Below are positions 1 to 16,619 of a stretch of DNA of 57,429 bases, in pieces; position 1 is the stretch's first letter; the number at the start of each line of letters is the position of its first letter. The stretch covers positions 1 to 57,429 of the forward strand of contig JAPLTR010000271.1 in NCBI GenBank assembly GCA_026398065.1, in the 5' to 3' direction. This stretch comes from Verrucomicrobiota bacterium (GTDB lineage Bacteria; Verrucomicrobiota; Verrucomicrobiia; Opitutales; Opitutaceae). The notes beneath the pieces are model-generated. The model was given only the letters and a program-made list of their open reading frames with translations. It did not search any database and was not told the origin of the DNA. The position numbers and the translations under genes are program-made.

Positions 1-101
1 GATGAGCCGGTGGCGCCGGGGGTGGCCGGGGCGGTCGCGGCCCGCCCGCCGGCGAGGCCGGCCAGCGCGAGGAGCAGGGAGAGCAGGCGGCGCGTGATCA
101 T
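1..101 (-). CDS. Secreted protein, 5' end only (continues beyond window start). Occupies the PilP/PilQ position after the PilMNO-like genes.
   Basis: ATG at 101-99 overlaps the TGA of the upstream ORF (ATGA coupling). The N-terminus MITRRLLSLLLALAGLAGGRAATAP looks like a signal peptide. The fragment is too short to classify. Confidence 0.35.
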   Translation of the reverse strand, partial: MITRRLLSLLLALAGLAGGRAATAPATPGATGS

Positions 102-688
102 TTCTTGCCGAGGAATTCGAGGCTCAGGTCGAGCATGATGCCGCCGCCCGCCGTGCCGCCGCCGCCGCCGGCGCCCGGCACGCCGCTGGAGTCGCGGCGG
201 CTGAAGCCGAAGGCCGTGATGCTGGCGAGGCGCGGGCCGGTTTCGATCGCGAAGAGGAAGGCCACGACCTGCTCATAGGTGCCCGCGACGCGCAGCGTGT
301 AGGGCACCCGGCGATACAGCGCACTGGTGTCGGAGGCGGGCGACGTGAGCGGATGGAGCTCCGGCAGGCGGACCTTGGTCTGCTCCTCGAACTTGTAGAA
401 ATAGAACTGGTTCTCGGCGAGGTTGCTCTCCACCACCAGGTTTTCCTCGATGCGGCGGACGGCCTCGCGGACGGCGGCGAGCTCCTCCCGCTGGGTCGAG
501 CCGCCCACGAGCAGGGCAAACATCTCGTCGCCCTCCTTGGCGCGGGCCTCGCGGATGATCTCCAGGTCCGCGTTTTGCTGGATGAAAAACCACGTCGCCC
601 CGGCGAGCGCGAGGGTCACGACGGTGCAGACCGCGCAGTAGGGAAAGCGGCGGACAAAGGCGACGAACTGCGCGAGGCGGAAGTTCAT
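98..688 (-). CDS. pilO: PilO-like type IV pilus/T2SS inner-membrane assembly protein
   Basis: 196 aa. Short basic N-terminus, one TM helix (CAVCTVVTLALAGATWFFI), a coiled-coil, then an alpha/beta C-domain. 4-nt overlap with the PilN-like gene. The Gly-rich C-terminal tail is atypical. Confidence 0.5.
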   Translation of the reverse strand: MNFRLAQFVAFVRRFPYCAVCTVVTLALAGATWFFIQQNADLEIIREARAKEGDEMFALLVGGSTQREELAAVREAVRRIEENLVVESNLAENQFYFYKFEEQTKVRLPELHPLTSPASDTSALYRRVPYTLRVAGTYEQVVAFLFAIETGPRLASITAFGFSRRDSSGVPGAGGGGGTAGGGIMLDLSLEFLGKK

Positions 689-1296
689 GGCTTCGAGTTC
701 TTGAGACGGAAGGTCATCTCGAAATTGAACGTCTCCCCGACATTGACCCCGCTGCCGCGGTCGATGTTGGTGAGGGCGATCTCGCGGAAGAGCGGGCCGA
801 TCTTGGGGTCCGCCTTCAGCTGTTTCTCATAGTTTCGCAACAGGAGGGTGGCGCGCTGCGAATTGTCGCGGACATTGCCGCGGACGAGGATCCCGGCGTC
901 GGTCCACTCGATCATCTCGATCACGACCTGGTCGGGCCGCGTGCGGCCGAGGTCGGCGACAAAGCCGGACACGAACAGCGTGGGCTTCACGAGGGCGTAG
1001 GCCTGGTCGATCTTGGCCGCCTCGATGGCGTACTCCCGCTGCATGTGCTTGATGTCGGCCACCTCGGCGCGGTTGTCGACGATGCGCTGCTCCCAGTCGC
1101 GGATCTCGGCGCGCAGGCTCGAGTTCACGGAGAAGCGCCAGCCGGCGTACAGCAGCATGGCGAGCGTGACCGCGCTGAACACCGCGTTGATGAGGAAACG
1201 CGTGCCGACGACGTTGTCCTCGGGCAGCTCGGCCACGAGGCGGACGTCCACATGCCAGTGGGGGCTCAGGCCGATGGGATCACGTTCGCGGCTCAT
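685..1296 (-). CDS. pilN: PilN-like fimbrial assembly protein
   Basis: 203 aa. Cytoplasmic N-terminus, one TM helix (FLINAVFSAVTLAMLLYAGW), and a coiled-coil (EIRDWEQRIVDNRAEVADIKHMQREY). Overlaps the PilM-like stop by 17 nt. Gene order is M-N-O. Confidence 0.5.
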   Translation of the reverse strand: MSRERDPIGLSPHWHVDVRLVAELPEDNVVGTRFLINAVFSAVTLAMLLYAGWRFSVNSSLRAEIRDWEQRIVDNRAEVADIKHMQREYAIEAAKIDQAYALVKPTLFVSGFVADLGRTRPDQVVIEMIEWTDAGILVRGNVRDNSQRATLLLRNYEKQLKADPKIGPLFREIALTNIDRGSGVNVGETFNFEMTFRLKNSKP

Positions 1297-2338
1297 TGGT
1301 GGCGAGGGGGGCGAGCTGGGCGATCAGGCTCAGCGGTTGAAACCACGACCGGGTGGGCGCCGGCGCGCCGTCGGGGAGGCTGAGGCCGACCGAGGGCAGC
1401 CAGACCGCGTAGTCGGGCACGAGAAACTCCAGGTCGACGGCGGCGCAGAGCGCCTCCTCGAGCCAGCCGAGACGCGAGGGGAGCTGGGAGCAGTAGAGCG
1501 CCCCGATGGGCTGGCCGGTCTGCATTTCAAAGTAGTCGATCGCGGGCCGGAGGTGGCGGGTGAGCATGCGCACGAGCCGGCGGCTGTGGGTGCGCAATTC
1601 GTCGGTGGGGGCGAACAGCGCGTCGCGGGCGACCCCGATGTCGGGCGCGGCGAGCTCCTTCATGGCGGCCTCCATCACCGACAGCAGCCCATGGGGCAGC
1701 GTGGCGGGCGTGTGCACGCCGTCCTTGGCGAGAAAATAGATGCGGGTCTGGCCGAGGCCGATCTCGCACACGACGACTGCGTGCGGATACGACGTCTCCC
1801 GGATGTAGCGCGTGAGGGCGCCCAGGAGCGGCAGGCTGCCGACCTCGAGCCGGCGGGGGCGGATCGCGAGTTTCCGCAGGCGCTGCTGGAGGTCGCGGAC
1901 GCCGGACAGCGGCAGTCCGAACAGCAGCCCGGGACGGGCCGGAGTGGCGGCGGTGAACTCCTCGCCCTCGATGGGATGGATCGCGGTGACGAGCCAGTCC
2001 TTGACGCTGGGGATCTTGGCCGACTCGGCCAGGAGCGCGGGCAGAAACCCCGGTTCCGCCAGGCGGCGCGAGTTGATGATCTCCCGTTGCAGCACGCGCT
2101 CGACCGGATGGAAGCCGCAGAACCCCGTGAGGTAGCCGGGACCGCGGTTGGGAAACGCCCGGGCGATCCAGTCCGTGATCGCGGCATCGTCCGCCGTCGC
2201 CGGCAGCTCGGCAAACATATCCACCTCGAGGGGCTTTTCATGGAGCCGGGCCAGCCGCGCAAGCTGCACGCCGTGGTCGTTCTGATTGAACAGAACGCCA
2301 TTGCGCTTGTCGCGGGTGAACATCGAGAGGGCCGCCAT
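1280..2338 (-). CDS. pilM: PilM-like actin-fold pilus assembly protein
   Basis: 352 aa from ATG 2338 (the track ORF starts at TTG 2389). VVVCEIGLGQTRIYFLAKDG resembles an actin/HSP70 phosphate-binding motif. The position is directly upstream of the PilN/O-like genes. Divergent sequence. Confidence 0.45.
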   Translation of the reverse strand: MAALSMFTRDKRNGVLFNQNDHGVQLARLARLHEKPLEVDMFAELPATADDAAITDWIARAFPNRGPGYLTGFCGFHPVERVLQREIINSRRLAEPGFLPALLAESAKIPSVKDWLVTAIHPIEGEEFTAATPARPGLLFGLPLSGVRDLQQRLRKLAIRPRRLEVGSLPLLGALTRYIRETSYPHAVVVCEIGLGQTRIYFLAKDGVHTPATLPHGLLSVMEAAMKELAAPDIGVARDALFAPTDELRTHSRRLVRMLTRHLRPAIDYFEMQTGQPIGALYCSQLPSRLGWLEEALCAAVDLEFLVPDYAVWLPSVGLSLPDGAPAPTRSWFQPLSLIAQLAPLATNEPRT

Positions 2339-2435
2339 GTAGGGGGTTTGATCGGGACGACTAGGGCCAAAACACCATGGGGCTGTCAACCCGGGTGAAA
2401 CCGGACCGGCGCGGGGGCGGCGGGTTCTGCCAAAG

Positions 2436-4277
2436 CTACGGCAGGGTGACTTTCTCGGCCGGATCGGTCAGCTCGCGCAACTCGGCGATCTCGTAGGGGC
2501 TGTCGACGCCGCTGATCACGGCGGTGCGCAGGGAGGTGTCGTAGTGGAGGTTGGTCGCGTGGTTGAAGTAGACGTTCGAAGCCGAGAGCGCGCCATGCAG
2601 TTGCTCGTTGTAACCGCTATTCCACATGTGGAGGTAGGCATTGGGCATGTAGATCACTCCATGGAAGTACACGTTGCTCCAAAAATAATGATACCCGGAG
2701 GAGTTATAGGAGCTGGTGCCCAGAATGATGCAGCGCTTGGGATCCGCCGTCTGATTGTCGATGCCGCCGCCACTGTCGCTCCCGATATAAAGCCGCCCGC
2801 CAAAATGGACCTCCAGCGAAGCGATGGGGTAGGTGGCGTTGCTGGTGATGTTGATTTTTCCGGTCCCTCGGATGTAGAAATCGGCGCTAGCGCTGGGCCG
2901 GACATCGATGACGACCGGTTTGTTGATGACAAGAATGTCACCCGAGTTGAGATCGATGTCCCCGCTCGTGTAGTAATAATATTTTCCGTCCGCGGCATTC
3001 ACATTGTCACTTCCACGCGGGAGCTGGAGCGTGCCGGACCCCGGCAGAGGCGACGATAGGGAAAGCGCATTGATGGTGGTGGGAGACACGCTTTGGATGT
3101 CGAACTGCGGGATGTAGGGGCTGCGGCTGAGGCGCGTCAGGTCGATTTTGGGGGAAGGCGTCGGTGAGGTCGAGACCGAGGCCGCCGTCACCATGCCCGA
3201 GGTGCTGTTGGTATAGAGCGGGACATAGGGAGCCGACGACGCGGGCGCGGCGACGTAGCCGTTGACGCGCACATTGGTGATGGCCACCGCCGTGCCGTTC
3301 GTCTTGCCACCGGCCACGACCGCGGAGGAACCGATGTTCGGGTTGGCGGCGGTGAACGGAGCGCTGGTCTGATTGTAGGAACCGAGGAAGGAATTGTAGC
3401 TGTCCACCACTCCCGCGCTGCTTAGGTTGGTATAGGAGGCCGAGGCGACCGCATTGGGGAACAGGGAGGCGGGAGCGAGCGTGGCCCGCAACTGGGTTCG
3501 GAGCGTCGTGGAATTGCTGTCCGGCAAAGTCGCCACCCCCTCGGCATAGATGACCGGCGCACTGACCCAGTAGGTGGTGTTCGGCGGCGCATGGGCAGTG
3601 TGGGCCACGAGGCACCGGTAGGCCATGCCGCCGGTGTAAACGATATTGTCCACCGCATAGGTGGTGGCGGAACTCCAGTTCCCGGCGGTGAGCGCCGTCC
3701 AGTAAGTGGTGTTGGGCGGGACCTGGCCGATGTTGCCCGTGGTGCAGCGATAAGCGGTGCCACCGGACAGCACGATATTGTTGATCTGGTAGTTCGCCGA
3801 CGGAGTCCAGGACTCCGGGGCGCTTTTCCAGTAGGTGTTGTTGTACGGGGCTTCATTGCCCGGGGGCGCGGCGATGCAGAGATACCAGACTCCCATGTAC
3901 CACACAAAATCGCCGACCGCATAGGTGAGCGACATGCTCCACGGCGTCGCTTTCTTCGTATCCAGATAGTGGTCCACCCGGATATTCACCGAGGCGGTGA
4001 TGCCGCTGTTTCCATAGCGGCTGCTGGCGATCGAAAGGGTTCGGGTGGCGGTGACCCCGGAAAGCGACCAACTGCTGAACGTGTTGGCATTGTAGGACCG
4101 CAGGGCGCGCTCCAGCCCCATCTGCGCCAACTGCCGGCTCACGGCCTGCGCGTAGGTGCGGTTGCTCAGCTTCATCGCCTGATTGCTCAACGCGAGAAAA
4201 CTAGCCAGCGCGATGCCCAGCACCGTGACACACGACAGCGCAACCAGGACGACCGAACCTCTTTGGCGACGGTGCAT
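2436..4277 (-). CDS. PilX-like minor-pilin/tip protein carrying three CBM5/12 (chitin-binding type 3)-like repeats
   Basis: 613 aa. The N-terminus RQRGSVVLVALSCVTVLGIALASFLALSNQ is a PilX_N-type hydrophobic anchor. Residues ~110-241 hold three repeats of W-x4-Y-x2-(GD/N)-x-V-x-(Y/S/T)-x-G-x2-Y-x-C followed by PPNTTYW. The C-terminus is Ser/Thr/Asn-rich and beta-rich. ATGA overlap with the upstream prepilin gene. Confidence 0.6.
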   Translation of the reverse strand: MHRRQRGSVVLVALSCVTVLGIALASFLALSNQAMKLSNRTYAQAVSRQLAQMGLERALRSYNANTFSSWSLSGVTATRTLSIASSRYGNSGITASVNIRVDHYLDTKKATPWSMSLTYAVGDFVWYMGVWYLCIAAPPGNEAPYNNTYWKSAPESWTPSANYQINNIVLSGGTAYRCTTGNIGQVPPNTTYWTALTAGNWSSATTYAVDNIVYTGGMAYRCLVAHTAHAPPNTTYWVSAPVIYAEGVATLPDSNSTTLRTQLRATLAPASLFPNAVASASYTNLSSAGVVDSYNSFLGSYNQTSAPFTAANPNIGSSAVVAGGKTNGTAVAITNVRVNGYVAAPASSAPYVPLYTNSTSGMVTAASVSTSPTPSPKIDLTRLSRSPYIPQFDIQSVSPTTINALSLSSPLPGSGTLQLPRGSDNVNAADGKYYYYTSGDIDLNSGDILVINKPVVIDVRPSASADFYIRGTGKINITSNATYPIASLEVHFGGRLYIGSDSGGGIDNQTADPKRCIILGTSSYNSSGYHYFWSNVYFHGVIYMPNAYLHMWNSGYNEQLHGALSASNVYFNHATNLHYDTSLRTAVISGVDSPYEIAELRELTDPAEKVTLP

Positions 4278-4912
4278 CAGGGGAGAACCGTCTTGTTGCG
4301 GAGCAGCAACCGGGGCGACGCGACCTGGTAAACGCTGGTCAGGGTGCCGTTACGACTCGTGCCCGCCTGCGCGCTAAGCGTCAGCGAGACCTGCTTGATC
4401 CCCAGCAGGTAGTTGACGTAGCTCGTGTAGGGGTTCCCTGAATTATCGTAATAGCTGAAAGTGCAGCTCAGCAGGCTGCTGTGCAGCGTGAGACCGGTGC
4501 TGGTGTTCACATCGATCCGGGCGAGACACTTGGGCGGCACGGAGTAACCGCCGACCGTCTCGGCCACGGCCACCGTCGCGGGCGGAACGATCGTGCCCTT
4601 GTTGTAGTAATAGATCACGTTCTTGGTGCCGCCCGTGCTCTGGGGCACCGTGAGCGTCACCTGGGAATCGGAGGGTGAGGTGACGGCCGACGCCAGCTGC
4701 ACATCCTGCGTGAAATACGCCAGCGTGCGCCGACCCTGAGCCTCAAGCGTCGGCTGGTTGGGATCCCCAAACCCGATCGTCCGCGTATAGCTGCGCGCCA
4801 CAAAGACGTAGCTCGACAGCACCGCCGTCATCACCATCAGCGAAAGACTGACCCCGATGATAAGCTCGGCGATCGTGAAACCGCCCCGCCGGCTGGAAGG
4901 ATGCCGTCTCAC
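4277..4912 (-). CDS. Prepilin-type N-terminal cleavage/methylation domain protein (PilW-like minor pilin)
   Basis: 211 aa with a GTG start. MRRHPSSRRGG|FTIAELIIGVSLSLMVM is a class III signal peptide with the G|F..E motif. GTGA overlap with the upstream gene. Confidence 0.7.
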   Translation of the reverse strand: MRRHPSSRRGGFTIAELIIGVSLSLMVMTAVLSSYVFVARSYTRTIGFGDPNQPTLEAQGRRTLAYFTQDVQLASAVTSPSDSQVTLTVPQSTGGTKNVIYYYNKGTIVPPATVAVAETVGGYSVPPKCLARIDVNTSTGLTLHSSLLSCTFSYYDNSGNPYTSYVNYLLGIKQVSLTLSAQAGTSRNGTLTSVYQVASPRLLLRNKTVLP

Positions 4913-5418
4913 GATTGCCGGTAGCTGAGATGCAGCCCGTTTTTCCCATACCAGGCCGAGTTCGCACAGGTATGGGTGGTGGTGAGACGGGCGCCGCCGC
5001 TCGTCAGGCGGCTGGAGGTGACGACCCAGGTCACGGTGAAGTTTACCTCGCGGATGTTCGTGACGGGGTCGGGATTCGTCACCGTTCGCGTGAGCGTGAA
5101 ACGCACGACAGCATTGGCCGTGTTGTTGTCGCCCAGCGCCAGCCGCGCCGCGTCAAACTGCGAATCGATCGTGAGCGTGGTGCTGGCGGTCGGCAGGGCG
5201 CTGATGGTCGACCAGGTGGCAAGGTACAGCTCCTCGATCTCGTGATTGATGATCTGCGTCGCGAGGGTCTGCCGGCGCGCGTGGTCCATGGTGGTGGACG
5301 TCACCGTCACAGCCTCGATCAGGCCGATGAAGCCCACCATCAGGATAAGCGTCGCCATCATCACTTCGATCACAGTGAAACCGGCGGAGCGGCGGAAAAT
5401 TTGAGCGAGGTTAGTCAA
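4909..5418 (-). CDS. Prepilin-type minor pilin (PilV-like)
   Basis: An in-frame TTG at 5418 gives the leader MTNLAQIFRRSAG|FTVIEVMMATLILMVGFIGL, a 13-aa leader with the G|F..E motif. The track ORF extends to 5529, but that would give an implausibly long Arg/Pro-rich leader. Confidence 0.65.
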   Translation of the reverse strand: MTNLAQIFRRSAGFTVIEVMMATLILMVGFIGLIEAVTVTSTTMDHARRQTLATQIINHEIEELYLATWSTISALPTASTTLTIDSQFDAARLALGDNNTANAVVRFTLTRTVTNPDPVTNIREVNFTVTWVVTSSRLTSGGARLTTTHTCANSAWYGKNGLHLSYRQS

Positions 5419-5686
5419 CGCGGGTGGGACAAAATCTGTTATGCACCCGGCGACACCTCCGCAAGCCCAAGGCGGGAGCGGCGGGCGCGCCCGACCGCAC
5501 CACCTCCTCAGGGAGGGTGCGGATCGCAACGGACGAAGGGGAAATCGGCGGGGGCGGGTGCATGGCGGCGATCAGCCGGTCCAATCGCGAGGGGAAGAAT
5601 TCCGCGCCATCCGATGGCGTCAAGGGGGTCATCGCCGCAATCCCTCCGTAGTGAGTGAGTGGGGGTAAGTACGCCGATCCATTCTG

Positions 5687-5816
5687 TCCCAATCCCGGGA
5701 TCGTTTTTTCCCGCATTGCACACAACCGGGCCGGCTCCGAACCGCGCAGCTAGTTCATATTATCTTTGATAAACAATGGTTTACGAACTTCTATCCGAGC
5801 TGGCACGCGCATTGCA
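5687..5816 (+). promoter_or_regulatory. Sigma54 promoter module P1: UAS palindrome, A/T tract and -24/-12 element
   Basis: TGGCACgcgcaTTGCA at 5801-5816 has exact GG-N10-GC spacing. The palindrome TCCCAatccCGGGA at 5687-5700 lies 101 nt upstream of the GG. An A/T-rich tract sits at 5752-5790. The ATG of the next ORF is 30 nt downstream. Confidence 0.8.
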
Positions 5817-5845
5817 AAGGGAGGGCTCAACTCACTCACATCACC

Positions 5846-6124
5846 ATGAAGACTTCCTTCACCGCCTTCTCGCTCATTCTCGCCGCCGGGTTTCCCGGCT
5901 CGCTCCTCGCCGAATTCGCCGGCGTTTCCCTGCCGGCGGCGCTCGAGCCCGGCACGACCTTCGGGGTCGCCGTGGCCGTCCTGACGCTCCTCACGGCGTT
6001 CTCCGACTACACCCGGCATCCCTCCGCGCTCGTCGCGGGCGCGGCCGGCGCGACGCGCGACTCCGCCCTCGCGTCCGCCACGCGGACCGACGCCGCCACG
6101 GAAGAACGCCGCCTCGCCGCGTGA
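5846..6124 (+). CDS. Small (92 aa) secreted/membrane protein, first gene behind sigma54 promoter P1
   Basis: MKTSFTAFSLILAAGFPGSLLA|EF looks like a signal peptide, and a second hydrophobic segment follows (TTFGVAVAVLTLLTAF). Third-codon positions are G/C-rich in this frame. I recognised no similar family. Confidence 0.45.
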   Translation: MKTSFTAFSLILAAGFPGSLLAEFAGVSLPAALEPGTTFGVAVAVLTLLTAFSDYTRHPSALVAGAAGATRDSALASATRTDAATEERRLAA

Positions 6125-6192
6125 ACCTGACGGCGCAACTTCCTTCCGCCCGTCATCTTGACAGTCCCGACGCGCCCCTTGTCACTTCCCGC

Positions 6193-7560
6193 ATGTCAGA
6201 CGCGCCCCCGCATCGCATTTTGATCGCCGACGACCAGGCGGACGTGCTCGAAGCCCTCCGCCTGCTCCTCAAATGCGAGGGCTACGCCACCGAAGTCGTC
6301 AAGTCCCCGGCTGCCGTCATCAAGGCCGTCGAGGCCCGCGACTACGCGCTGGTGCTGATGGACCTCAACTACGCGCGTGACACCACGAGCGGCCAGGAAG
6401 GCCTGGAGCTGTTGCAAAAGCTCGCCGCCATCGACGCGACGCTCCCGGTCGTCGTCATGACCGCGTGGGCCAGCGTCGATGTCGCCGTCGAGGCCATGCG
6501 CCGCGGCGCGCGCGACTTCGTCACCAAGCCGTGGGACAACCCGCGTCTCCTCGCGATCGTCCGCAATCAGATCGACCTCGGCCACGCCGTCCGCGCCTAC
6601 CGCCGCCTCGAGCAGGAAAACCAACTGCTCCGCACGTCCGGCAAATCCGGCCCGACGCTCATCGCGCAGTCCGCCGCGATGCGTCCGGTCCTCGACGTGA
6701 TCGCGCGCGTCGGCCCGTCCGACGCCAATGTCCTCATCACCGGCGAAAACGGCACCGGCAAGGGCCTCGTCGCCCAGGCGCTGCACGCGGTGTCCGCGCG
6801 CGCGGGAAAACCGTTCATCTCCGTCAACATGGGCGGCCTCCCCGAAGGGGTCTTTGAGAGCGAACTCGTCGGCCACGTGCGTGGCGCGTTCACCGACGCG
6901 AAATCCGACCGCGCGGGCCGCTTCGAACTCGCCGACAGCGGCACGCTCTTCCTCGACGAGATCGGCAACATCCCGCTCTCCCAGCAGGCCAAGATTCTCC
7001 GGACGATCGAGACGGGCGAATTCGAGCGCGTCGGCTCGTCGCGGACCTTCCGCGCCAACGTCCGCCTCGTCTCCGCCACCAACTCCGACCTGCAGGCCGA
7101 GGTCGCCGCGGGGAAATTCCGCCAGGACCTCCTCTTCCGCCTCAACACGATCCAGCTCCACCTGCCGCCGCTCCGCGAGCGCCGCGAGGACATCGAGCTG
7201 CTCGCGCAGCATTTCCTGAAGGCGCACGTCGACCGCTACCGGAAACCGATCACGGGCTTCGACGCCTCCGCGCTCGACGCGCTCCGCGCCTATTCCTGGC
7301 CCGGCAATGTCCGCGAGCTCGACCACTCCGTCGAACGCGGCGTGCTCATGGCGCCCGGCAAAGTCGTGCGCGCCGCCGACCTCGGCCTCAACGCCGCGCA
7401 GGCCACGCCACGGCTCGAGGAAATGAGCATCGAGGAAGTGGAGGCGTTTCTCATCAAGAAGACCCTCGCCCGCTGCGACGGCAACGCCCGCAAGGCCGCC
7501 GAGGAGCTCGGCCTGAGCCGCAGCGCGTTTTACCGGCGGCTGGAAAAGTATGGGCTCTGA
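6193..7560 (+). CDS. NtrC-family sigma54-dependent response regulator (enhancer-binding protein)
   Basis: 455 aa from ATG 6193. Receiver domain (ILIADDQADVLE...LVLMDLNY). AAA+ sigma54-interaction domain with GENGTGKG Walker A, a GAFTDA loop and LFLDEIG Walker B. C-terminal Fis-type HTH (ARKAAEELGLSRSAFYRRLEKYGL). The upstream part of the track ORF (5776-6192) is an Arg-rich read-through and is not counted. Confidence 0.9.
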   Translation: MSDAPPHRILIADDQADVLEALRLLLKCEGYATEVVKSPAAVIKAVEARDYALVLMDLNYARDTTSGQEGLELLQKLAAIDATLPVVVMTAWASVDVAVEAMRRGARDFVTKPWDNPRLLAIVRNQIDLGHAVRAYRRLEQENQLLRTSGKSGPTLIAQSAAMRPVLDVIARVGPSDANVLITGENGTGKGLVAQALHAVSARAGKPFISVNMGGLPEGVFESELVGHVRGAFTDAKSDRAGRFELADSGTLFLDEIGNIPLSQQAKILRTIETGEFERVGSSRTFRANVRLVSATNSDLQAEVAAGKFRQDLLFRLNTIQLHLPPLRERREDIELLAQHFLKAHVDRYRKPITGFDASALDALRAYSWPGNVRELDHSVERGVLMAPGKVVRAADLGLNAAQATPRLEEMSIEEVEAFLIKKTLARCDGNARKAAEELGLSRSAFYRRLEKYGL

Positions 7561-7676
7561 GCGGCGGTGAGCTTTAGGCTGTAGGCCACCCGCCATTCCC
7601 GCTAGCGATCCGGCGCATGAAAAACTATCGCGCACTCCCTGTGGGAAAAACCTGATGGGCTGCAGACCGCCGTCTC

Positions 7677-9026
7677 ATGCCTAAATCCAACCGCAGGTTC
7701 TCCCACGATCAGGTCGTATTTTTCTACGCGCTGCTCGCCGGTCTCCCCTCGGTCGCCGTCGCCATGTATTTCCTCTGGCTGGACGATCCCGCGCCCGCGG
7801 CGAAGATCCAGTGGACGTTCACGCTGCTGATCGCGGGGTTCTGGTTCGGTTTCGCCGCCGCCACGCGCAACCGCGTCGTGCGCCCGCTGCAGACGATGGC
7901 CAACCTCCTCTCCGCGCTGCGCGAGGGCGACTTCGCCGTCCGCGCCCGCGGCGCCCGCCGGGACGAGGCGCTGGGCGACGTGATGTTCGAGATCAACACG
8001 CTCAGCCGCACGCTGCAGGACCAGCGCCTCAACGCCCTCGAGGCCACCGCCCTCCTCCGCACCGTGATGGAGGAGATCAACATCTCCATTTTTGCCTTCG
8101 ACGCCGACCGCAAGCTCCGCCTCGCCAACCAGGCCGCGCAGCTCCTGCTCAACAAGCCCGCCGAGCGCATCCTCGGCCGCGACGCCGCCGAGATCGGCCT
8201 CGCCGACTGCCTCGACGGCGAGCCGACCCGCCTCCTCCAGATCACGTTCCCCGGCGGCACCGGCCGCTGGGGCATGCGGCGCAGCCAGTTTCGCGAGGGC
8301 GGGCGGCCGCACCAGCTCGTCGTCATCGCCGATCTCAGCCGCACGTTGCGCGAGGAGGAGCTGCTCGCGTGGCAGCGCCTCGTGCGCGTCCTCGGCCACG
8401 AACTCAACAACTCGCTCGCGCCGATCAAATCCATCGCCGGCAGCCTCAGCTCGCTCCTCCGCAATCCCAAGCGCGCGCCGGACTGGGAGGACGACATGCG
8501 CAGCGGCCTCGACATCATCGCGTCGCGTTCCGAGAGCCTCGCGCGCTTCATGCAGGCCTACGCGCGCCTCGCCCGCCTCCCCCAGCCCACCGTCGCGCCC
8601 TGCGAGATCACGGACCTCGTGCACCGCGTCGTCGCGCTCGAGCGCCGCCTCCCGGTGCGCGTGCTCGGCGGGCCGAACCTCACGCTCGCCTGCGACGCCG
8701 CGCAGATCGAACAGGTCCTGATCAACCTCGTGAAAAACGCCGTCGAGGCCGCGCTCGAGCAGCGCGCCGAGGGCCAGGCCGACGCCACCGTGCGCCTCTC
8801 GTGGCGCAGGACGGGCAACGTCGCCGAACTCCTCGTCGAGGACGACGGACCGGGCATCGCGCAGACCTCGAACCTCTTCGTCCCGTTCTTCACGACGAAG
8901 CCCGAGGGCTCCGGCATCGGCCTCGTCCTCTGCCGCCAGATCGCCGAGAACCACGGCGGCTCCCTCGCCCTCGCCAACCGCCCCGGCGACACCGGCTGCC
9001 TCGCGACCCTGCGGCTGCCGGCGTAA
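7677..9026 (+). CDS. Sensor histidine kinase (2 TM, minimal external loop, HAMP, PAS-like, HisKA, HATPase)
   Basis: 449 aa. TM1 is VVFFYALLAGLPSVAVAMYFLWL, the loop is DDPAPAAKIQ, and TM2 is WTFTLLIAGFWFGFAAA. H-box LGHELNNSLAPI. ATP-lid boxes NLVKNAVEA, DDGPGI and GSGIGL. Confidence 0.9.
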   Translation: MPKSNRRFSHDQVVFFYALLAGLPSVAVAMYFLWLDDPAPAAKIQWTFTLLIAGFWFGFAAATRNRVVRPLQTMANLLSALREGDFAVRARGARRDEALGDVMFEINTLSRTLQDQRLNALEATALLRTVMEEINISIFAFDADRKLRLANQAAQLLLNKPAERILGRDAAEIGLADCLDGEPTRLLQITFPGGTGRWGMRRSQFREGGRPHQLVVIADLSRTLREEELLAWQRLVRVLGHELNNSLAPIKSIAGSLSSLLRNPKRAPDWEDDMRSGLDIIASRSESLARFMQAYARLARLPQPTVAPCEITDLVHRVVALERRLPVRVLGGPNLTLACDAAQIEQVLINLVKNAVEAALEQRAEGQADATVRLSWRRTGNVAELLVEDDGPGIAQTSNLFVPFFTTKPEGSGIGLVLCRQIAENHGGSLALANRPGDTGCLATLRLPA

Positions 9027-9041
9027 TCAAACTCAGGATAC

Positions 9042-9059
9042 GCCGCGGCCCTCCGCGGC
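9042..9059. terminator. GC hairpin in a convergent intergenic region (possible bidirectional terminator)
   Basis: GCCGCGG-ccct-CCGCGGC is a 7-bp stem with a 4-nt loop. It lies between the HK stop (9026) and the stop of the minus-strand gene (9066). There is no U-tract. Confidence 0.3.
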
Positions 9060-9065
9060 CGCGCG

Positions 9066-11729
9066 CTATCTCTCGATGAACAGCGCCCGCTGGTCGCCGA
9101 TCCCGATCCACTGTTTGGCGAACGGCAGGTAGTTGATCAGCACGCCGTTGTTGCCCTGCATCGCGTTCTTCCGGCCGTCGAACAGCATGAGCGCCCCGTG
9201 GGTGTCGTCGACCGGCACGTAGATCGCAACGAGCGTGTCGATCGTCTCCGGGATGTAGTTCGCCAGCTGCTGGCGTGCGCGCGCCTCCGCGTAGTGCAGT
9301 TGCTCGGGGGTCGGATGAAACTGCCCCTGCACGGTGATTTCAAACGGCTCCTCAATCAGCGAGCGGCGGTAGGGCCACTTGAGTTTGGCATTGCGCAGCT
9401 CCTCTGCCGTCGGCGCGTGCGGCGGACTCACGATCTGCCGCCAGGCGGTGAGATGCATCGCGAGGGACGGGGGATGCCGGATCCCCTGCCGCACGCTCCC
9501 GACCGCGAGCAGGACGCCCAGAACCCAGCCCGCGGCCACCGCGGCCCAGGTCGCCGCCTGGCGCGGGGGAAAGTTCAGCCGCACCTCGTCGGCGGGGATC
9601 GCCACCGTCTTCACCTCGGCGCAGATCCGCTTCAGTTCCGCCGTCGCGGCCGCCAGCGTCGTCGGCTGGCCGGTGGCGATGGCGAGGCGTCGGAGCTCCG
9701 TTTCACAGCGGCCGATCCCATCGCGCCAGGCCCAGGGGGTCGTCTCCGCGATCCAGCGGCCCACTGACACCGCCTGTTCACGGTTGGTCAGCAGCCGCAG
9801 GCCCAGGGCAAGCACGATGGGGGTCAGCCCCAGCAGCACGCCGGTCGGCCCCGGCACGTGGACCGCCAGCAGCAGGATGCCGCCGATGCCCGCCGCCGCA
9901 AACAGCCACCGCCGGCCAAACACCATCGGGCCCGCCTTCATCGCCAGCTCCAGCCGGCCCCAGAACACGATCTTCACCAGGGCCGCGGCCCGCTTCAGCA
10001 GCTCCGCGAGCCGCCGCTGCCGGACCTCTTCATGCGTGAGAAAACCGAACCGCGGCGCCTCCTGCTCCATCCGGGCGAGCACCAAAATCATCACGGGCGT
10101 CGGGTGCGGGACCGAGAAAACCCGCTCCACCGCGGCATCCGTCGTCATCGCATAGCGCGTTTTCATTTTCAGCCGGGTGGCCGTCAGCTCCGTTTCGCCG
10201 GTCAGCGCCAGCCGCCACAACGCCGCCGGATCGCCCAGGTCGGCCGGCTTCACGCCGACCTGTTTTTCAAAAAAGAGCTCCGCATCGAGGACCCATTTCA
10301 CCAGTTCCTCCAGCAGGTCCGCCGCGGTGTGGTCGTAGCGGCGCACCTGGGCCACCAGCGCCGGCTCGGACAGCACGATCAGCTCGGTGCGGAGGGTCGC
10401 AAACTCCTCCGGCCGATCGAGGGCCGCCCGCAGGTTTTCCGGATTCAACGCCTTTCCCTTCCACCGAAAATGCCCCTGCGCCAGGGAGTTTAGCGCGAGC
10501 GTCGCCACCACCAGGTGGCGGAGCTTGGGCTCGACCTTGGTCAGCGCGGTCGACTTCTCCAGTGCGCGCACCGACTCGATTTGCGCCCAGTCCCGGCGGT
10601 GCGTTTCCGATTCCGCCAGAAACTTGGCGAGCGTGCCGGCCTGGTTGGCGGCCAGCGCATGCTCCTCCACCCTCGCGCAATGCTCCGGGCCCAGCAGGCG
10701 GTCGGCCGCCTCCGCCGCGGAATGGCTGCGGCCGTCGATGCGAAAGAAACGTTCGAGCCGCGCGGAGTTGTAGCGTTCGACCGGCAGCTCGCCAGCCAGC
10801 CACGACCGCACGCTCTCCGCCCCCCACCGTCCGTCCATCGAGCTTGTCAGCAGGCCGCGCAACAGCCGCGCCAGCCGCGGCTCGAGCGCCCCCATCAGCT
10901 CCACCGCGCCGGCCCGCAACGTCCCGGTCGCTCGCTCAAACAGGAGCGCCTCGGCCAGCCCGCCCAGACTTTGCGGCAGACCCGCCCGCAGGTCGGGCGG
11001 CACCAGCGTCACTACGTGCCGGCCGATCATGAACTGCTGCACCACCCGGCCCACCGACCACCAGTCCCACGCGAGCAGGGCGGACCCGGGCGAATGCTTG
11101 AACAGCCCGGCCGTCTCCGGCGGCGCGTACAGCGGATCCGCCTCGATCATGATCAGGCCCTTCTGCTCGGTCTCGGTGACCCGGTCCAGTCCCCCCACGA
11201 CAAAGTGCGGGCCCGCCGGTTCCTCCCGGACGAAGATCCAGTCCGCGTTCAGTTGAAAATGCCCCAGTCCCGCGGCGTGCAGCGCCTCGACGGCCAGCGC
11301 CAGCTGCCTCACCAGTTCGGCCGTAACCTCCGCCGTCGGTTCGCTCTGATCCGCCCGCCAGCGCCGCAGCGAAACTCCCGCCACCCCCTCCCAAACCTGG
11401 ACCAGCCCGTCCGCCGTGAGGTGCGACTCGATCGGCCGCTGCCAGTGGGGACACGGGATTGCCCGCAGCCGTTCGAATCTCGCCGTCCGGCCCTTGACGT
11501 CGTCGGCCGCCGCAAACGTGCGCAACAGCACCCCTTCGCCGGTCGTGAGATCGGTCGCCTGATACCAACCGGTCGTCGCGTCCCCCCACACCCCGGACAC
11601 CTGATAGCGCCCGTTCCAACATGCTCCGACCACGACCCGCCCCGCCGCGGGCCCGGGGCGCGAAGAGGGGTCCTTCGCTTCCAGACCGACAGCCCCGGAG
11701 GCGGGGGAATCGATGGTTTCTGAGAGCAT
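9066..11729 (-). CDS. 887-aa membrane protein with an N-terminal degenerate Hanks-type kinase (pseudokinase) domain
   Basis: The kinase-fold landmarks are present but the catalytic residues are lost. VLLRTF replaces VAIK, HAAGLGHFQLNADWIFV replaces HRDLKPxN, GGLD replaces DFG, and YAPPE and WDWWSVGRVVQQFMIG are retained. A long helical middle region follows, then ~3 TM helices (aa ~608-745) and a ~140-aa C-terminal domain of unknown type. Confidence 0.6.
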   Translation of the reverse strand: MLSETIDSPASGAVGLEAKDPSSRPGPAAGRVVVGACWNGRYQVSGVWGDATTGWYQATDLTTGEGVLLRTFAAADDVKGRTARFERLRAIPCPHWQRPIESHLTADGLVQVWEGVAGVSLRRWRADQSEPTAEVTAELVRQLALAVEALHAAGLGHFQLNADWIFVREEPAGPHFVVGGLDRVTETEQKGLIMIEADPLYAPPETAGLFKHSPGSALLAWDWWSVGRVVQQFMIGRHVVTLVPPDLRAGLPQSLGGLAEALLFERATGTLRAGAVELMGALEPRLARLLRGLLTSSMDGRWGAESVRSWLAGELPVERYNSARLERFFRIDGRSHSAAEAADRLLGPEHCARVEEHALAANQAGTLAKFLAESETHRRDWAQIESVRALEKSTALTKVEPKLRHLVVATLALNSLAQGHFRWKGKALNPENLRAALDRPEEFATLRTELIVLSEPALVAQVRRYDHTAADLLEELVKWVLDAELFFEKQVGVKPADLGDPAALWRLALTGETELTATRLKMKTRYAMTTDAAVERVFSVPHPTPVMILVLARMEQEAPRFGFLTHEEVRQRRLAELLKRAAALVKIVFWGRLELAMKAGPMVFGRRWLFAAAGIGGILLLAVHVPGPTGVLLGLTPIVLALGLRLLTNREQAVSVGRWIAETTPWAWRDGIGRCETELRRLAIATGQPTTLAAATAELKRICAEVKTVAIPADEVRLNFPPRQAATWAAVAAGWVLGVLLAVGSVRQGIRHPPSLAMHLTAWRQIVSPPHAPTAEELRNAKLKWPYRRSLIEEPFEITVQGQFHPTPEQLHYAEARARQQLANYIPETIDTLVAIYVPVDDTHGALMLFDGRKNAMQGNNGVLINYLPFAKQWIGIGDQRALFIER

Positions 11730-11848
11730 GCTGCGTTAACCCCAATCGCTCGATTTCCGAACGACTTAAGGCCGATGGTATTTCTACTCTACGGCGCAGC
11801 GGGGCCTTTCCCTCTGAGTAGTCCCGCGCCGTCCGGCTTTCCGACCTG

Positions 11849-11977
11849 TCCCACTTCTGGGAAATCCACGTCCCACCAACGCGGCCTGGATCGCCGACCC
11901 GTTTTCCATCGAAAATTTCTTTCCACTCTTTTCCAACGACTTATCCACCGTCGCATCCCTTGGGCACGACCGCTGCA
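11849..11977 (+). promoter_or_regulatory. Sigma54 promoter module P2 (upstream of the MacA-like gene)
   Basis: GGGCACgaccgCTGCA at 11962-11977 has GG-N10-GC spacing. The palindrome TCCCActtcTGGGA at 11849-11862 lies 100 nt upstream of the GG. AAATTTCT at 11913-11920 sits about 50 nt upstream of the GG. Confidence 0.7.
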
Positions 11978-11998
11978 AACATCCCCGCACACACACAC

Positions 11999-13252: not shown

Positions 13253-13321
13253 TTTCCTGAAACTTTTCACCCGGTCGGGGGCTTTACCTTCCAGCTCCTC
13301 CCTCCTCGACCCACTCCCGTC

Positions 13322-13396
13322 ATGATCGCCCTCACCATCCTCCTTGCCCTGATGATCGCCTTTGTCGCCCACGACACCGCCGACCAGCAGCGCTGA
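13322..13396 (+). CDS. Candidate 24-aa single-TM micro-protein between the adaptor and ATPase genes
   Basis: ATG...TGA encodes MIALTILLALMIAFVAHDTADQQR. Third positions are G/C-rich. It sits in an otherwise unexplained 192-nt gap. The only evidence is the ORF itself. Confidence 0.25.
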   Translation: MIALTILLALMIAFVAHDTADQQR

Positions 13397-13444
13397 GTCC
13401 TTTCCCTCCGCCTCGTCTCCACGACCAACCTACCTTCCCCCACC

Positions 13445-14146
13445 ATGTCCTCGACGAATCCCTCCCTCATCAAGCTCGACGGCGTCACCAAGGTCTTCCT
13501 CACCGACGAGGTTGAGACGCACGCCCTCTCTGGCATCCACCTCGACATCCGCCAAGGCGAGTACGTCGCCATCGCCGGCCCCTCCGGCTGCGGCAAGTCC
13601 ACCCTCCTCTCCATCCTCGGCCTCCTCGACTCCCCGAGCGACGGCACCTACACCCTCCACGGCCGCCCCGTCCAGCACCTCTCGCTCCCCGAACGCGCCC
13701 GCATCCGCAACCGCGAGATCGGCTTCATCTTTCAGTCGTTCAATCTCATCGGTGACCTCACCGTCTACGAAAACGTCGAGCTGCCCCTCACCTACCGCGG
13801 CATGCCCGCCAGCGAGCGCAAGGCCGCCGTCACCGCCGCCCTCGAGAAGGTCGGCATGGGCCACCGCGCCAAGCACCTCCCCTCCCAGCTCTCCGGCGGT
13901 CAGCAGCAGCGCGTCGCCGTCGCCCGCGCCCTCGCCGGCTCGCCCGCCGTCCTCCTCGCCGACGAGCCCACCGGCAATCTCGACTCGAAAAACGGCGACT
14001 CCGTCATGGCCCTCCTCGCCGACCTCCACAAGGGCGGCGCGACCATCGTGATGGTCACGCACGACACCCGCTTCGCCCGCCACGCCGAACGCACCATCCA
14101 CATCTTCGACGGTCGCGTCGTGCAGGAGCAGGTCGAGCAGCATTGA
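13445..14146 (+). CDS. MacB/LolD-type ABC transporter ATP-binding protein
   Basis: 233 aa. Walker A GPSGCGKST, Q-loop, signature LSGGQQQRVAVARAL, Walker B VLLADEPTGNLD, and H-loop VMVTHD. Confidence 0.92.
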   Translation: MSSTNPSLIKLDGVTKVFLTDEVETHALSGIHLDIRQGEYVAIAGPSGCGKSTLLSILGLLDSPSDGTYTLHGRPVQHLSLPERARIRNREIGFIFQSFNLIGDLTVYENVELPLTYRGMPASERKAAVTAALEKVGMGHRAKHLPSQLSGGQQQRVAVARALAGSPAVLLADEPTGNLDSKNGDSVMALLADLHKGGATIVMVTHDTRFARHAERTIHIFDGRVVQEQVEQH

Positions 14147-16576: not shown

Positions 16577-16619
16577 AAGGCAAACGCCTGCGCGCTGCCT
16601 GTGTAGGTCCACATCGCCG

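What the first reader, a model, noticed from the sequence alone, without database searches (positions are those of the whole stretch)
3555..3950. A PilX-like pilus protein carries three tandem CBM5/12-like (chitin/cellulose-binding) repeats
Residues ~110-241 read:
- TPWSMSLTYAVGDFVWYMGVWYLCIAAPPGNEAPYNNTYW
- ESWTPSANYQINNIVLSGGTAYRCTTGNIGQVPPNTTYW
- GNWSSATTYAVDNIVYTGGMAYRCLVAHTAHAPPNTTYW

These are three copies of the aromatic W..Y..GD.V.Y.G..Y pattern typical of chitin-binding type-3/CBM5-12 modules. They are placed right after a PilX_N anchor, in an operon with two prepilin-type minor pilins and pilMNO-like genes. This would put a polysaccharide-binding module on a type IV pilus or pseudopilus tip.
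Basis: partly seen in the sequence, partly recalled or inferred. Interest (0 to 1): 0.6.

Follow-up and report, generated by a model that had tools for sequence, protein, structure and literature searches.

The report
Pilus-tip protein with CBM5/12-like repeats
A soil/freshwater-type Verrucomicrobia (Opitutaceae) bacterium encodes a large pilin-like "cap" protein with three small chitin-binding-type modules inserted in it, probably to make a pilus-like filament sticky or longer at its tip; the modules are real, but they lack the residues known to bind chitin, and the design is a variation on the known "modular pilin" theme.

Summary
Residues 110-241 of a 613-aa minus-strand protein (window 2436-4277) are three tandem ~44-aa repeats. 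They match Pfam CBM_5_12 above its cut-off, and in a confident AlphaFold model they superpose on solved CBM12/CBM5 chitin-binding domains.

- **For:** the gene follows two prepilin genes that have G|F...E5 sites, and it precedes genes for a PilM-fold protein plus PilN- and PilO-like proteins. Its N-terminus is a 56-residue pilin-type helix with a GspK-like "RG|S" site and no Glu5.
- **Against:** Pfam PilX_N does not match it. The repeats carry a family-wide 3-residue deletion that removes the Trp needed for chitin binding in the CBM12 archetype (Trp687 of ChiA1). GH18 chitinases do not co-occur with the protein across Opitutaceae.

In relatives the same scaffold carries 0 to 11 such repeats at the same insertion point, and similar arrays occur in phage tail fibres.

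Best reading: a GspK/PilX-class modular tip pilin that displays a CBM5/12-fold array as an adhesive and/or extension module, with an unknown ligand. It is a new variant of a known kind (modular pilins), of moderate interest.

The parts
2436..4277 (-). Whole gene: 613-aa modular GspK/PilX-class (cap-type) minor pilin candidate. Its ATG overlaps the stop codon of the upstream pilin gene by 1 nt.
   Evidence: ORF. More than 240 homologues at up to 88% identity, nearly all with CBM_5_12 plus DUF7305. AF2 model has pLDDT 87.2 and pTM 0.84.
4086..4277 (-). N-terminal residues 1-64. Basic leader MHRRQRG, a conserved [G/A]|S putative prepilin-peptidase site, no Glu5, and a long alpha1 helix (residues 9-64).
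   Evidence: AF2 secondary structure. Family alignment. hhalign aligns this segment to the N-terminus of E. coli GspK, but with only 13% probability. No PilX_N hit.
3951..4085 (-). Residues 65-109: a small beta/alpha head segment that precedes the insertion point.
   Evidence: AF2 strands 71-73, 76-83 and 94-102. Paralogues without repeats align to residues 2-112 and then jump to residue 249.
3828..3950 (-). CBM5/12-like repeat 1 (residues 110-150).
   Evidence: CBM_5_12 at 21.1 bits on its own. Family repeat HMM at 69 bits.
3690..3821 (-). CBM5/12-like repeat 2 (residues 153-196).
   Evidence: CBM_5_12 at 19.0 bits on its own. Family repeat HMM at 69 bits.
3555..3686 (-). CBM5/12-like repeat 3 (residues 198-241).
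   Evidence: CBM_5_12 at 32.5 bits on its own, above the gathering cut-off. phmmer hit to the 4ILV CBM.
2439..3554 (-). C-terminal beta-rich domain (residues 242-613). The Pfam DUF7305 match covers residues 427-585 (nt 2523-2999).
   Evidence: DUF7305 at 43.8 bits against a cut-off of 27. No convincing solved-structure relative. Only a weak profile hit to a phage baseplate spike beta-helix, E 0.0027. Only 270 cluster representatives among 1.84 billion proteins.
4277..4912 (-). Minor prepilin B, 211 aa (RRGG|FTIAE, Glu5 present); GspJ/PilW position.
   Evidence: N_methyl weak hit. 52% identical orthologue in the GAS368 cassette.
4909..5415 (-). Minor prepilin A, about 168 aa, from a TTG start (MTNLAQIFRRSAG|FTVIE, Glu5 present); GspI/PilV position.
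   Evidence: N_methyl weak hit. Weak NCBIfam hits to GspJ, PilV, GspI and ComGE N-termini. Start inferred from the sequence.
1280..2338 (-). PilM-fold protein (actin-like ATPase fold), about 352 aa. It has no Pfam match.
   Evidence: AF2 pLDDT 88.7. Foldseek top hits are PilM 2YCH (TM 0.68/0.71), P. aeruginosa PilM and M. xanthus PilM, followed by FtsA and EpsL/GspL.
685..1296 (-). PilN-like bitopic protein, 203 aa. In Opitutus sp. GAS368 it is fused to the PilM-like gene, giving a GspL-like architecture.
   Evidence: PilN weak hit, E 0.037. BLAST shows the fusion.
98..688 (-). PilO/GspM-like protein, 196 aa.
   Evidence: PilO at 20.1 bits (cut-off 22) and GspM_XpsM at E 0.0014. The GAS368 orthologue passes the PilO cut-off at 26.9 bits.
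1..103 (-). Start of a seventh gene (MITRRLLSLLLALAGLAGG..., signal peptide) that runs off the contig end. It sits where GAS368 and G043 have a ~186-aa gene; equivalence is inferred from position only. 'PilP-like' is a judgement by eye.
   Evidence: Translation of the 34 codons in the window. The GAS368 186-aa gene has a 61% identical orthologue at this position in G043. No Pfam hit for the GAS368 protein.

Best explanation
The protein is the large, cap-type (GspK/PilX-class) subunit of a three-gene minor-pilin tip set (I-J-K order). The set belongs to a type IV filament (type IV pilus or T2SS-like pseudopilus) in an Opitutaceae bacterium.

**Proposed mechanism**
1. The N-terminal hydrophobic alpha1 helix would insert into the top of the filament core. 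It has no Glu5, as in K subunits that cap the tip.
2. The two small Glu5-bearing pilins encoded just upstream would lie beneath it.
3. Three CBM5/12-fold modules are inserted as a cassette between the pilin-like N-domain and a ~370-aa DUF7305 beta domain, so they would be displayed at the filament tip.
4. There they most likely act as a multivalent array that binds an insoluble glycan or surface, and they also set how far the distal domain projects.
5. The motor ATPase, platform, major pilin, prepilin peptidase and secretin are encoded elsewhere in the genome.

**Shown:** the repeat homology and fold, the clean-insertion architecture, the gene order, the PilM fold of the neighbouring gene, and the absence of the canonical chitin-binding residues.

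**Inferred:** processing by prepilin peptidase, incorporation at the tip, surface exposure, any ligand binding, and the identity of the ligand. The ligand is probably not chitin bound in the canonical way.
For: **The repeats are CBM5/12 homologues**
- CBM_5_12 scores above its cut-off in the target and in all 45 homologues.
- The fold matches the Vibrio COD tandem CBM12 (probability 1.0), S. griseus ChiC ChBD 2D49 (TMt 0.72) and ChiA1 ChBD 1ED7 (TMt 0.65).
- The core residues W, Y, Y and W are 96-99% conserved in 157 family repeats.

**The repeats are an insertion**
- The CBM-less paralogue in GAS368 aligns to target residues 2-112 and 249-602.
- Family members carry 0, 1 or 3-11 repeats (plus two apparently truncated proteins with 2), nearly always between the N-terminal and C-terminal domains.

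**Pilin-like context**
- AF2 predicts a helix at residues 9-64 followed by a beta head.
- A [G/A]|S site is conserved and there is no Glu5. K subunits lack Glu5 and cap the tip (PMC9934059).
- The upstream genes have G|F...E5 sites.
- The I-J-K set followed by an M/N-type (GspL-like) and an O-type (GspM-like) gene parallels gspI-J-K-L-M in E. coli.
- The neighbouring gene has a PilM fold. PilO passes its cut-off in the orthologue.

**The machinery exists elsewhere in the genome**
- 10 T2SSE ATPase loci, 4 secretin loci and 1 prepilin peptidase.

**Precedent**
- Modular pilins are a described class, and some carry lectin modules.
- The pilin plus IPR003610 (CBM5/12) architecture is listed once in the Raynaud et al. 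census.
Against: - No PilX_N, T2SSK or N_methyl HMM hit for the target.
- hhalign against E. coli GspK gives only 13% probability.
- Foldseek found no solved pilin or GspK for the N-domain.
- The Trp687 equivalent is deleted, the Gln679 equivalent is not conserved, and there is no CBM5 W-W pair.
- The Pfam matches stop at model position 31 of 44.
- There is no co-distribution with GH18.
- The cassette has no major pilin, ATPase or secretin next to it. In G028 the I-J-K set stands alone.
- There are no expression or localisation data.
Confidence: 0.5

Rival explanations
1. Structural stalk. The CBM5/12-fold beads are a length-setting spacer, as in phage tail fibres, with no carbohydrate binding of their own. 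They project the DUF7305 domain, which would be the real effector or adhesin, away from the filament tip.
For: - Repeat number varies from 0 to 11 at one insertion point.
- The canonical binding Trp is deleted in 97-99% of repeats.
- The same fold in tandem is common in phage tail fibres and baseplates: 9RKV, 8FQC, 25VF and a Pelagibacter phage tail fibre.
- The DUF7305 domain is the constant part of the family, present in all members.
- One member carries an NHL propeller inserted in the DUF7305 domain instead.
Against: - The repeats keep a family-specific conserved surface-type motif, P-P-N-x-T-[Y/F]-W, with 91% aromatic at the residue before the core Trp. That is more conservation than a pure spacer needs.
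- Multi-CBM arrays that bind through avidity are also variable in number.
Confidence: 0.25
2. One reading: canonical chitin/cellulose-binding CBM5/12 modules on a pilus tip, mediating attachment to chitin or cellulose particles.
For: - Significant CBM_5_12 hits and fold matches to proven chitin binders.
- The genome has one GH18.
- NCBI names an orthologue 'carbohydrate-binding protein'.
Against: - The Trp687 equivalent is deleted and the Gln679 equivalent is A/S/T. There is no Y-W/W-W pair (with PMC8449059).
- 6 of 7 clearly CBM-bearing Opitutaceae genomes lack GH18, against 13 of 114 of the others having one, so there is no association.
- This is the only CBM_5_12 locus in the genome, and it is attached to no enzyme.
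Confidence: 0.12
3. Periplasmic T2SS-type pseudopilus tip. The K-like subunit never leaves the periplasm, and its modules contact secreted cargo, peptidoglycan or the secretin rather than an external surface.
For: - The gene order parallels gspI-J-K-L-M, and in GAS368 the PilM-like and PilN-like genes are fused as in GspL.
- Weak GspM, GspI and GspJ hits.
Against: - Family members reach 1087 aa with 10-11 repeats, which is hard to fit in a periplasmic piston tip.
- The M protein is closer in fold to PilM than to EpsL/GspL.
- The protein is S/T/N-rich and low in charge, like surface adhesins.
Confidence: 0.08
4. Not a filament subunit at all: a type II (signal-anchor) membrane protein that happens to lie in a pilin gene cluster.
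For: No pilin-family HMM hit and no N_methyl motif.
Against: - The predicted helix is 56 residues long, far longer than a membrane anchor.
- The [G/A]|S site after a basic leader is conserved.
- The gene is translationally coupled to two true prepilin genes, and the I-J-K trio is conserved even where M/N/O are absent.
Confidence: 0.05

Closest known systems
Modular type IV pilins (Streptococcus sanguinis PilB with a vWA module and PilC with a ConA-like lectin module; Raynaud et al. 2021, Shahin et al. 2023)
   Same: A pilin moiety carries grafted adhesive modules and is predicted to sit at the filament tip together with small minor pilins. Carbohydrate-binding modules on pilins are documented. 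The census lists IPR012902-IPR003610 (pilin plus CBM5/12) once.
   Different: Here the carrier is K-like: no Glu5 and no detectable IPR012902/N_methyl motif. The modules are inserted between two domains rather than appended at the C-terminus. They form a tandem array of variable number (0-11). The host is a diderm verrucomicrobium. Binding has not been tested.
GspK-GspI-GspJ pseudopilus tip complex of type II secretion (ETEC, PDB 3CI0) and its T4aP equivalents PilX-PilV-PilW
   Same: Two small Glu5-bearing minor pilins are followed by one large Glu5-less subunit with an extra domain inserted in the pilin head. Assembly-platform genes come next (gspL/M, comparable to pilM-N/O).
   Different: No T2SSK or PilX_N HMM match. 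hhalign probability is only 13%. GspK's insertion is an alpha-helical domain, whereas here it is CBM5/12 beads plus a DUF7305 beta domain. No H-type pilin, ATPase or secretin lies in the cassette.
CBM12/CBM5 chitin-binding domains (B. circulans ChiA1 ChBD 1ED7; Vibrio COD tandem CBM12 4NY2; S. griseus ChiC 2D49; S. marcescens ChiB)
   Same: Same small beta fold, same core aromatic residues and the same Y-x-C/H-T motif. The tandem arrangement resembles Vibrio COD.
   Different: A three-residue deletion removes the Trp687 loop. Gln679 is not conserved and there is no W-W pair. The repeats have gained a P-P-N-x-T-Y-W tail. They are not attached to any carbohydrate-active enzyme.
CBM5/12-like repeats in phage tail fibres and pyocin fibres (Agrobacterium phage 7-7-1 fibres 9RKV, Milano baseplate 8FQC, F2 pyocin fibre 25VF, Pelagibacter phage Mosig tail fibre)
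   Same: Tandem arrays of the same fold at the distal end of a filamentous, receptor-seeking appendage.
   Different: The carriers are trimeric viral fibres rather than a pilin. Sequence identity is only about 25-35%.
Verru_Chthon cassettes (NCBIfam TIGR02596-TIGR02600): multi-copy prepilin-like gene cassettes of Verrucomicrobia (description from my own knowledge of TIGRFAMs)
   Same: Multi-copy cassettes of prepilin-type proteins plus one large protein, in the same phylum.
   Different: Only a 14-bit sub-threshold hit of pilin A to cassette protein B. There is no hit of the target to protein D.

Membership tests
CBM5/12 (Pfam PF02839; CAZy CBM5 and CBM12) | Significant match to the family HMM | tested here: met
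   42.2 bits against a gathering cut-off of 26.2, in three stretches. Repeat 3 alone scores 32.5 bits. 45 of 45 homologues match.
CBM5/12 (Pfam PF02839; CAZy CBM5 and CBM12) | Small (~40-60 aa) beta fold with conserved core Tyr and Trp (Y265/W299 of CjCBM5) | tested here: met
   The AF2 model matches 1ED7, 2D49 and 4NZ4. Core Y is 99% and core W is 99% conserved across 157 repeats. The core role of these residues is taken from PMC8449059.
CBM5/12 (Pfam PF02839; CAZy CBM5 and CBM12) | Surface aromatic binding residues: the Y-W/W-W pair (CBM5), or Trp687 plus Gln679 (CBM12 ChiA1) | tested here: not met
   The Trp687 column is a gap in 97% of repeats. The Gln679 column is A/S/T. The target repeats have no aromatic pair at the CBM5 position.
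CBM5/12 (Pfam PF02839; CAZy CBM5 and CBM12) | Part of a carbohydrate-active enzyme, or demonstrated carbohydrate binding (the CAZy definition, from my own knowledge) | tested here: not met
   No catalytic domain was detected in the protein. Binding itself cannot be tested with these tools.
PilX_N (Pfam PF14341) | Match to the PilX N-terminal HMM | tested here: not met
   No hit at E<=10 for the N-terminal 109 aa. None in the 45 homologues. The best hit in the whole genome is 12.7 bits, elsewhere, against a cut-off of 25.5.
GspK / K-type cap minor pilin | Sequence or profile similarity to GspK (T2SSK) | tested here: inconclusive
   No Pfam or NCBIfam hit. hhalign against E. coli GspK aligns only the N-terminal 50 columns, with probability 13%.
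GspK / K-type cap minor pilin | Class III-like leader ending in G/A, a hydrophobic alpha1 without Glu5, and a large domain inserted in the pilin head | tested here: met
   MHRRQRG|SVVLV, with Val at position 5. [G/A]|S is conserved in the family. AF2 predicts a helix at residues 9-64. The insertion is shown by the paralogue alignment. The lack of Glu5 as a K-subunit trait is taken from PMC9934059.
GspK / K-type cap minor pilin | Encoded directly after I- and J-type minor pilins | tested here: met
   Two Glu5-bearing prepilin genes lie immediately upstream and overlap. The trio is conserved in GAS368, G043 and G028.
Modular pilins (as defined by Raynaud et al. 2021) | N-terminal IPR012902 / N_methyl motif plus an extra non-pilin domain | tested here: inconclusive
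   The extra domains are present (CBM_5_12 and DUF7305). The N_methyl motif is not detected in the target.
DUF7305 (Pfam PF23981) | Match to the family HMM above its cut-off | tested here: met
   43.8 bits against a cut-off of 27, residues 427-585.
PilM (the neighbouring gene at 1280-2338) | Actin-like ATPase fold closest to PilM | tested here: met
   Foldseek top 10 hits are all PilM (2YCH TM 0.68/0.71, E 6e-14). There is no Pfam hit.

The most novel reading that the evidence does not exclude
Opitutaceae carry interchangeable tip cassettes: an I-J-K set, often with its own PilM-N-O-(P) alignment set. The K cap subunit is a scaffold into which a bead-like array of 0-11 CBM5/12-fold modules is inserted. 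These modules have lost the canonical chitin-binding Trp and gained a conserved PPNxTYW face. This would be a new ligand-binding subclass of CBM5/12, or a tail-fibre-like adjustable stalk, displayed on a type IV filament. One shared motor could then build filaments with different tips.
Probability: 0.25. Interest if true: 0.6.

Novelty: new variant of a known kind. Interest (0 to 1): 0.38.

Why it matters
Verrucomicrobia of the family Opitutaceae are abundant polysaccharide degraders in soil, freshwater and guts. How they attach to particles is essentially unstudied.

If this family is confirmed as a tip-capping pilin with a variable array of CBM5/12-fold modules, it would give three things:
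- a concrete adhesin candidate for these bacteria;
- a natural series (0-11 modules) for testing how tip length and valency affect pilus function;
- a CBM5/12 subclass with a different binding face.

It also shows that Pfam-invisible PilM and K-type pilin clades exist in this phylum. The concept itself, adhesive modules grafted on pilins, is already established, so the advance would be incremental.

Tried and rejected
- **Pilin-family HMMs on the target.** Pfam and NCBIfam searches for PilX_N, T2SSK and N_methyl found nothing.
- **hhalign of the CBM-less family profile against E. coli GspK.** Only 13% probability, so it was not used as support.
- **Foldseek of the full model against PDB and BFVD.** Only the CBM modules find relatives. 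The N-domain and the DUF7305 domain find nothing convincing.
- **Profile of the CBM-less family against PDB sequences.** Only a weak hit to a phage spike beta-helix, E 0.0027.
- **A sigma54 promoter for the cassette.** The perfect TGGCACGCGCATTGC at 5801-5815 is on the opposite strand and serves the regulator operon, not the pilin genes. No sigma70-like site lies in 5350-5850.
- **A chitin link through GH18 co-occurrence.** No association was found.
- **A lipoprotein reading of the N-terminus (LSC).** Rejected because the -3 to -1 positions do not fit a lipobox across the family, and AF2 predicts one continuous helix.
- **A secretin downstream of the cassette.** None within 11.7 kb in G043 and none in GAS368. 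In this window the contig ends, so the question stays open here.
- **Literature search for DUF7305.** No papers.
Full report
**Observation**

The finding lies in a minus-strand ORF at window 2436-4277, encoding 613 aa. They align as three ~44-residue repeats with an invariant W...Y...V..G..Y.C...P.N.TYW skeleton.

Pfam CBM_5_12 matches the protein at 42.2 bits (gathering cut-off 26.2, E 8.4e-11, three stretches). Scanned one at a time the repeats give 21.1, 19.0 and 32.5 bits. phmmer against PDB sequences finds the tandem CBM12 pair of Vibrio cholerae chitin deacetylase and the CBM of 4ILV. A profile built from 35 family repeats hits the Vibrio deacetylases at 2.6e-8, the Bacillus circulans ChiA1 chitin-binding domain (1ED7) at 3e-6 and an F2-pyocin tail fibre at 1.6e-5.

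**Structure**

An AlphaFold2 model built on 45 homologues is confident (mean pLDDT 87.2, pTM 0.84). It shows:
- a 56-residue N-terminal helix (residues 9-64);
- a small beta head (71-102);
- three small beta modules (110-241);
- a beta-rich C-terminal domain (242-602).

Foldseek against the PDB matches only the repeat region. The hits are the Vibrio COD CBM12 tandem (probability 1.0), S. griseus ChiC ChBD 2D49 (TMt 0.72), ChiA1 ChBD 1ED7 (TMt 0.65, rmsd 2.2 Å over 41 columns), S. marcescens ChiB CBM5, and phage tail-fibre and baseplate proteins (9RKV, 8FQC). BFVD gives the same picture: CBM5/12, ChiC_BD and ChiA1_BD repeats in phage proteins. The fold assignment is therefore sound.

The C-terminal domain matches Pfam DUF7305 (43.8 bits) but has no convincing solved relative. 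The only signal is a weak profile hit to a phage spike beta-helix, E 0.0027. No paper mentions DUF7305.

**Are the repeats likely to bind chitin?**

I aligned all 157 repeats from 45 homologues with four reference CBM12 sequences. My typed 1ED7 sequence was verified as identical to the PDB chain.
- The core residues are kept: W 97%, Y 99%, Y 96%, W 99%, plus G, C and P.
- A three-residue deletion removes the A-G-W687 segment of ChiA1 (Q-D-W in COD) in 97-99% of the repeats.
- The Gln679 position is A/S/T.

Gln679 and Trp687 are the residues reported as involved in chitin binding by ChiA1 ChBD. CBM5s depend on a Y-W or W-W pair. Both points come from PMC8449059 and its reference to Hara et al. 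2013. The target's three repeats have no such pair.

In its place the repeats have a family-specific tail, P-P-N-x-T-[Y/F]-W, with 91% aromatic at the residue before the core Trp. N-x-[S/T]-aromatic-W occurs in 92 of 157 repeats.

This explains why the Pfam matches stop at model position 31 of 44. The modules are CBM5/12 by descent and fold, but they form a divergent subclass whose ligand cannot be inferred.

Genomic context does not point to chitin either:
- This is the only CBM_5_12 locus in the 7.2-Mb assembly.
- GH18 occurs in only 14 of 121 sampled Opitutaceae genomes.
- Of the seven genomes with a clearly CBM-bearing orthologue, only the window's own has a GH18.

**The family**

The protein has more than 240 close relatives, all from Opitutaceae/Verrucomicrobia sources. 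Almost all carry CBM_5_12 plus DUF7305. NCBI names them 'carbohydrate-binding protein' or 'hypothetical protein'.

An exhaustive HMMER search with the C-terminal domain finds only 270 cluster representatives among 1.84 billion proteins. In these, my repeat HMM counts 0, 1 or 3-11 repeats (two apparently truncated proteins show 2). The array nearly always lies between the ~110-aa N-domain and the ~370-aa C-domain, with an occasional extra repeat inside the C-terminal domain. Pfam confirms the long members as CBM_5_12-rich, up to 141 bits. One member instead carries NHL repeats inside the DUF7305 domain.

A CBM-less paralogue in Opitutus sp. GAS368 aligns to target residues 2-112 and 249-602. 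The repeat array is therefore a clean insertion. In 121 Opitutaceae genomes, 41 have a K-like protein, often several. Only about 7 have the CBM-bearing form.

**Gene context**

Upstream, and overlapping the target's ATG by one base, are two small genes with classical prepilin sites. These are RRGG|FTIAE at 4277-4912 and SAG|FTVIE at 4909-5415 from a TTG start. Both have Glu5 and weak N_methyl, PilV, GspI and GspJ hits.

Downstream lie four genes:
- A 352-aa protein with no Pfam or PDB sequence hit. Its AF2 model (pLDDT 88.7) finds PilM as its ten best Foldseek hits (2YCH TM 0.68/0.71), ahead of FtsA and EpsL/GspL.
- A PilN-like gene (weak hit).
- A PilO/GspM-like gene. Its GAS368 orthologue passes the PilO cut-off.
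- The first 34 codons of a seventh, signal-peptide-bearing gene, cut by the contig end.

In GAS368 the PilM-like and PilN-like genes are fused, as in GspL, and two such cassettes lie in tandem. G043 has the full I-J-K-M-N-O-P set and no secretin within 11.7 kb. G028 has only the I-J-K trio. The order parallels E. coli gspI-J-K-L-M.

The window's genome encodes 10 T2SSE ATPase loci, 4 secretin loci and one prepilin peptidase on other contigs. It also has paralogous sets on contigs C850 and C170.

**Is it PilX-like?**

Pfam PilX_N does not match the target, any of 45 homologues, or anything else in the genome. T2SSK does not match either. hhalign against E. coli GspK gives only 13% probability, and it aligns just the RG|hydrophobic...LAE N-terminus. 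Family membership is therefore not established.

Functionally, however, the features fit a K-type cap subunit:
- a basic leader ending in a conserved G/A;
- a 56-residue alpha1 helix without Glu5;
- a bulky insertion in the head;
- a gene position right after I- and J-type pilins.

K subunits lack Glu5 and cap the tip complex (PMC9934059).

**Mechanism proposed**

The three gene products would form a tip complex that primes a type IV filament built by machinery encoded elsewhere. The large subunit would cap it and expose the CBM5/12-fold array and the DUF7305 domain at the distal end. I put about 0.5 on this, with the array acting as a multivalent glycan or surface binder of unknown specificity.

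The main rival (0.25) is that the beads are a tail-fibre-like spacer whose number sets the reach of the DUF7305 domain. The literal chitin/cellulose reading gets about 0.12. A periplasmic T2SS-tip reading gets about 0.08, and a non-pilin membrane protein about 0.05.

Processing, incorporation into a filament, exposure and binding are all inferred. None is shown.

**Comparison with what is known, and novelty**

[quoted passage not shown] They include carbohydrate-binding modules, and S. sanguinis PilC is a proven lectin pilin. The supplement of that census lists pilin plus IPR003610 (CBM5/12) once, without study. Lectin-like PilX minor pilins are reported in Nanosynbacter.

What is new here:
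- the K-type carrier, invisible to pilin HMMs;
- the internal insertion of the modules;
- the variable number of repeats (0-11);
- the loss of the canonical Trp;
- the link to multi-copy I-J-K(-M-N-O-P) cassettes in Opitutaceae.

An earlier agent of this scan reached a similar reading for a relative in another genome. That is a lead, not independent evidence.

**Verdict**

This is a real feature and a new variant of a known kind. Interest is moderate (0.38).

Noticed in passing
window 5801-5815 (+): A perfect sigma54 -24/-12 consensus, TGGCACGCGCATTGC, faces away from the pilin cassette. It lies ahead of a 92-aa ORF (5846-6124), an NtrC-type regulator (to 7560) and a histidine kinase (7677-9026). 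It does not serve the pilin genes.
   Followed up: partly
window 5846-6124 (+): A small ORF with a signal peptide and a second hydrophobic helix preceded by A-L-E-P-G, faintly like a PEP-CTERM sorting signal.
   Followed up: no
window 1280-2338 (-): A highly conserved protein family (65-93% identity across more than 300 metagenomic relatives), about 350 aa, with no Pfam domain at all. Its predicted fold is clearly PilM. This is a PilM clade that current HMM libraries do not detect. In Opitutus sp. GAS368 it is fused to the PilN-like gene, giving a GspL-like architecture.
   Followed up: yes
G000 contigs C850 (~4355-6718, -) and C170 (11599-16319, +): The same genome holds further paralogous sets. 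C850 has two prepilins plus a CBM-less DUF7305 K-like gene. C170 has a PilM/PilN-like pair followed within ~1 kb by a secretin gene.
   Followed up: partly
L001 (Opitutus sp. GAS368, LT629735.1) 8869-14626 and 16149-21695: Two six-gene cassettes (I-J-K-[M+N fusion]-O-P-like) lie in tandem, separated by an HD-domain gene. The first K protein has three CBM repeats and the second has none.
   Followed up: yes
protein P0233 (649 aa; metagenomic relative): A family member with no CBM repeats carries NHL beta-propeller repeats inserted inside the DUF7305 domain. This is a second insertion site and a second kind of module in the same scaffold.
   Followed up: partly
window 3555-3950 (-) and family repeats: Each repeat ends in P-P-N-x-[T/S]-[Y/F]-W, and 92 of 157 family repeats have N-x-S/T directly before the aromatic-Trp pair. 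This could be a binding face, a structural turn or a glycosylation sequon. It is unexplained.
   Followed up: partly
L014 (G028:C80) 1-9400: In a same-genus genome the I-J-K(CBM) trio is followed not by pilM/N/O but by unrelated genes, including a Tat-signal protein and a sulfatase-like protein. The trio is therefore the conserved unit and the alignment genes are optional neighbours.
   Followed up: partly
L012 (E. coli K-12 NC_000913.3) 3455578-3469853: The control locus shows that the cryptic gspC-O operon of E. coli K-12 lies about 1.6 kb from chiA (endochitinase). This is a reminder that type IV filament systems and chitin use are linked in other bacteria.
   Followed up: no
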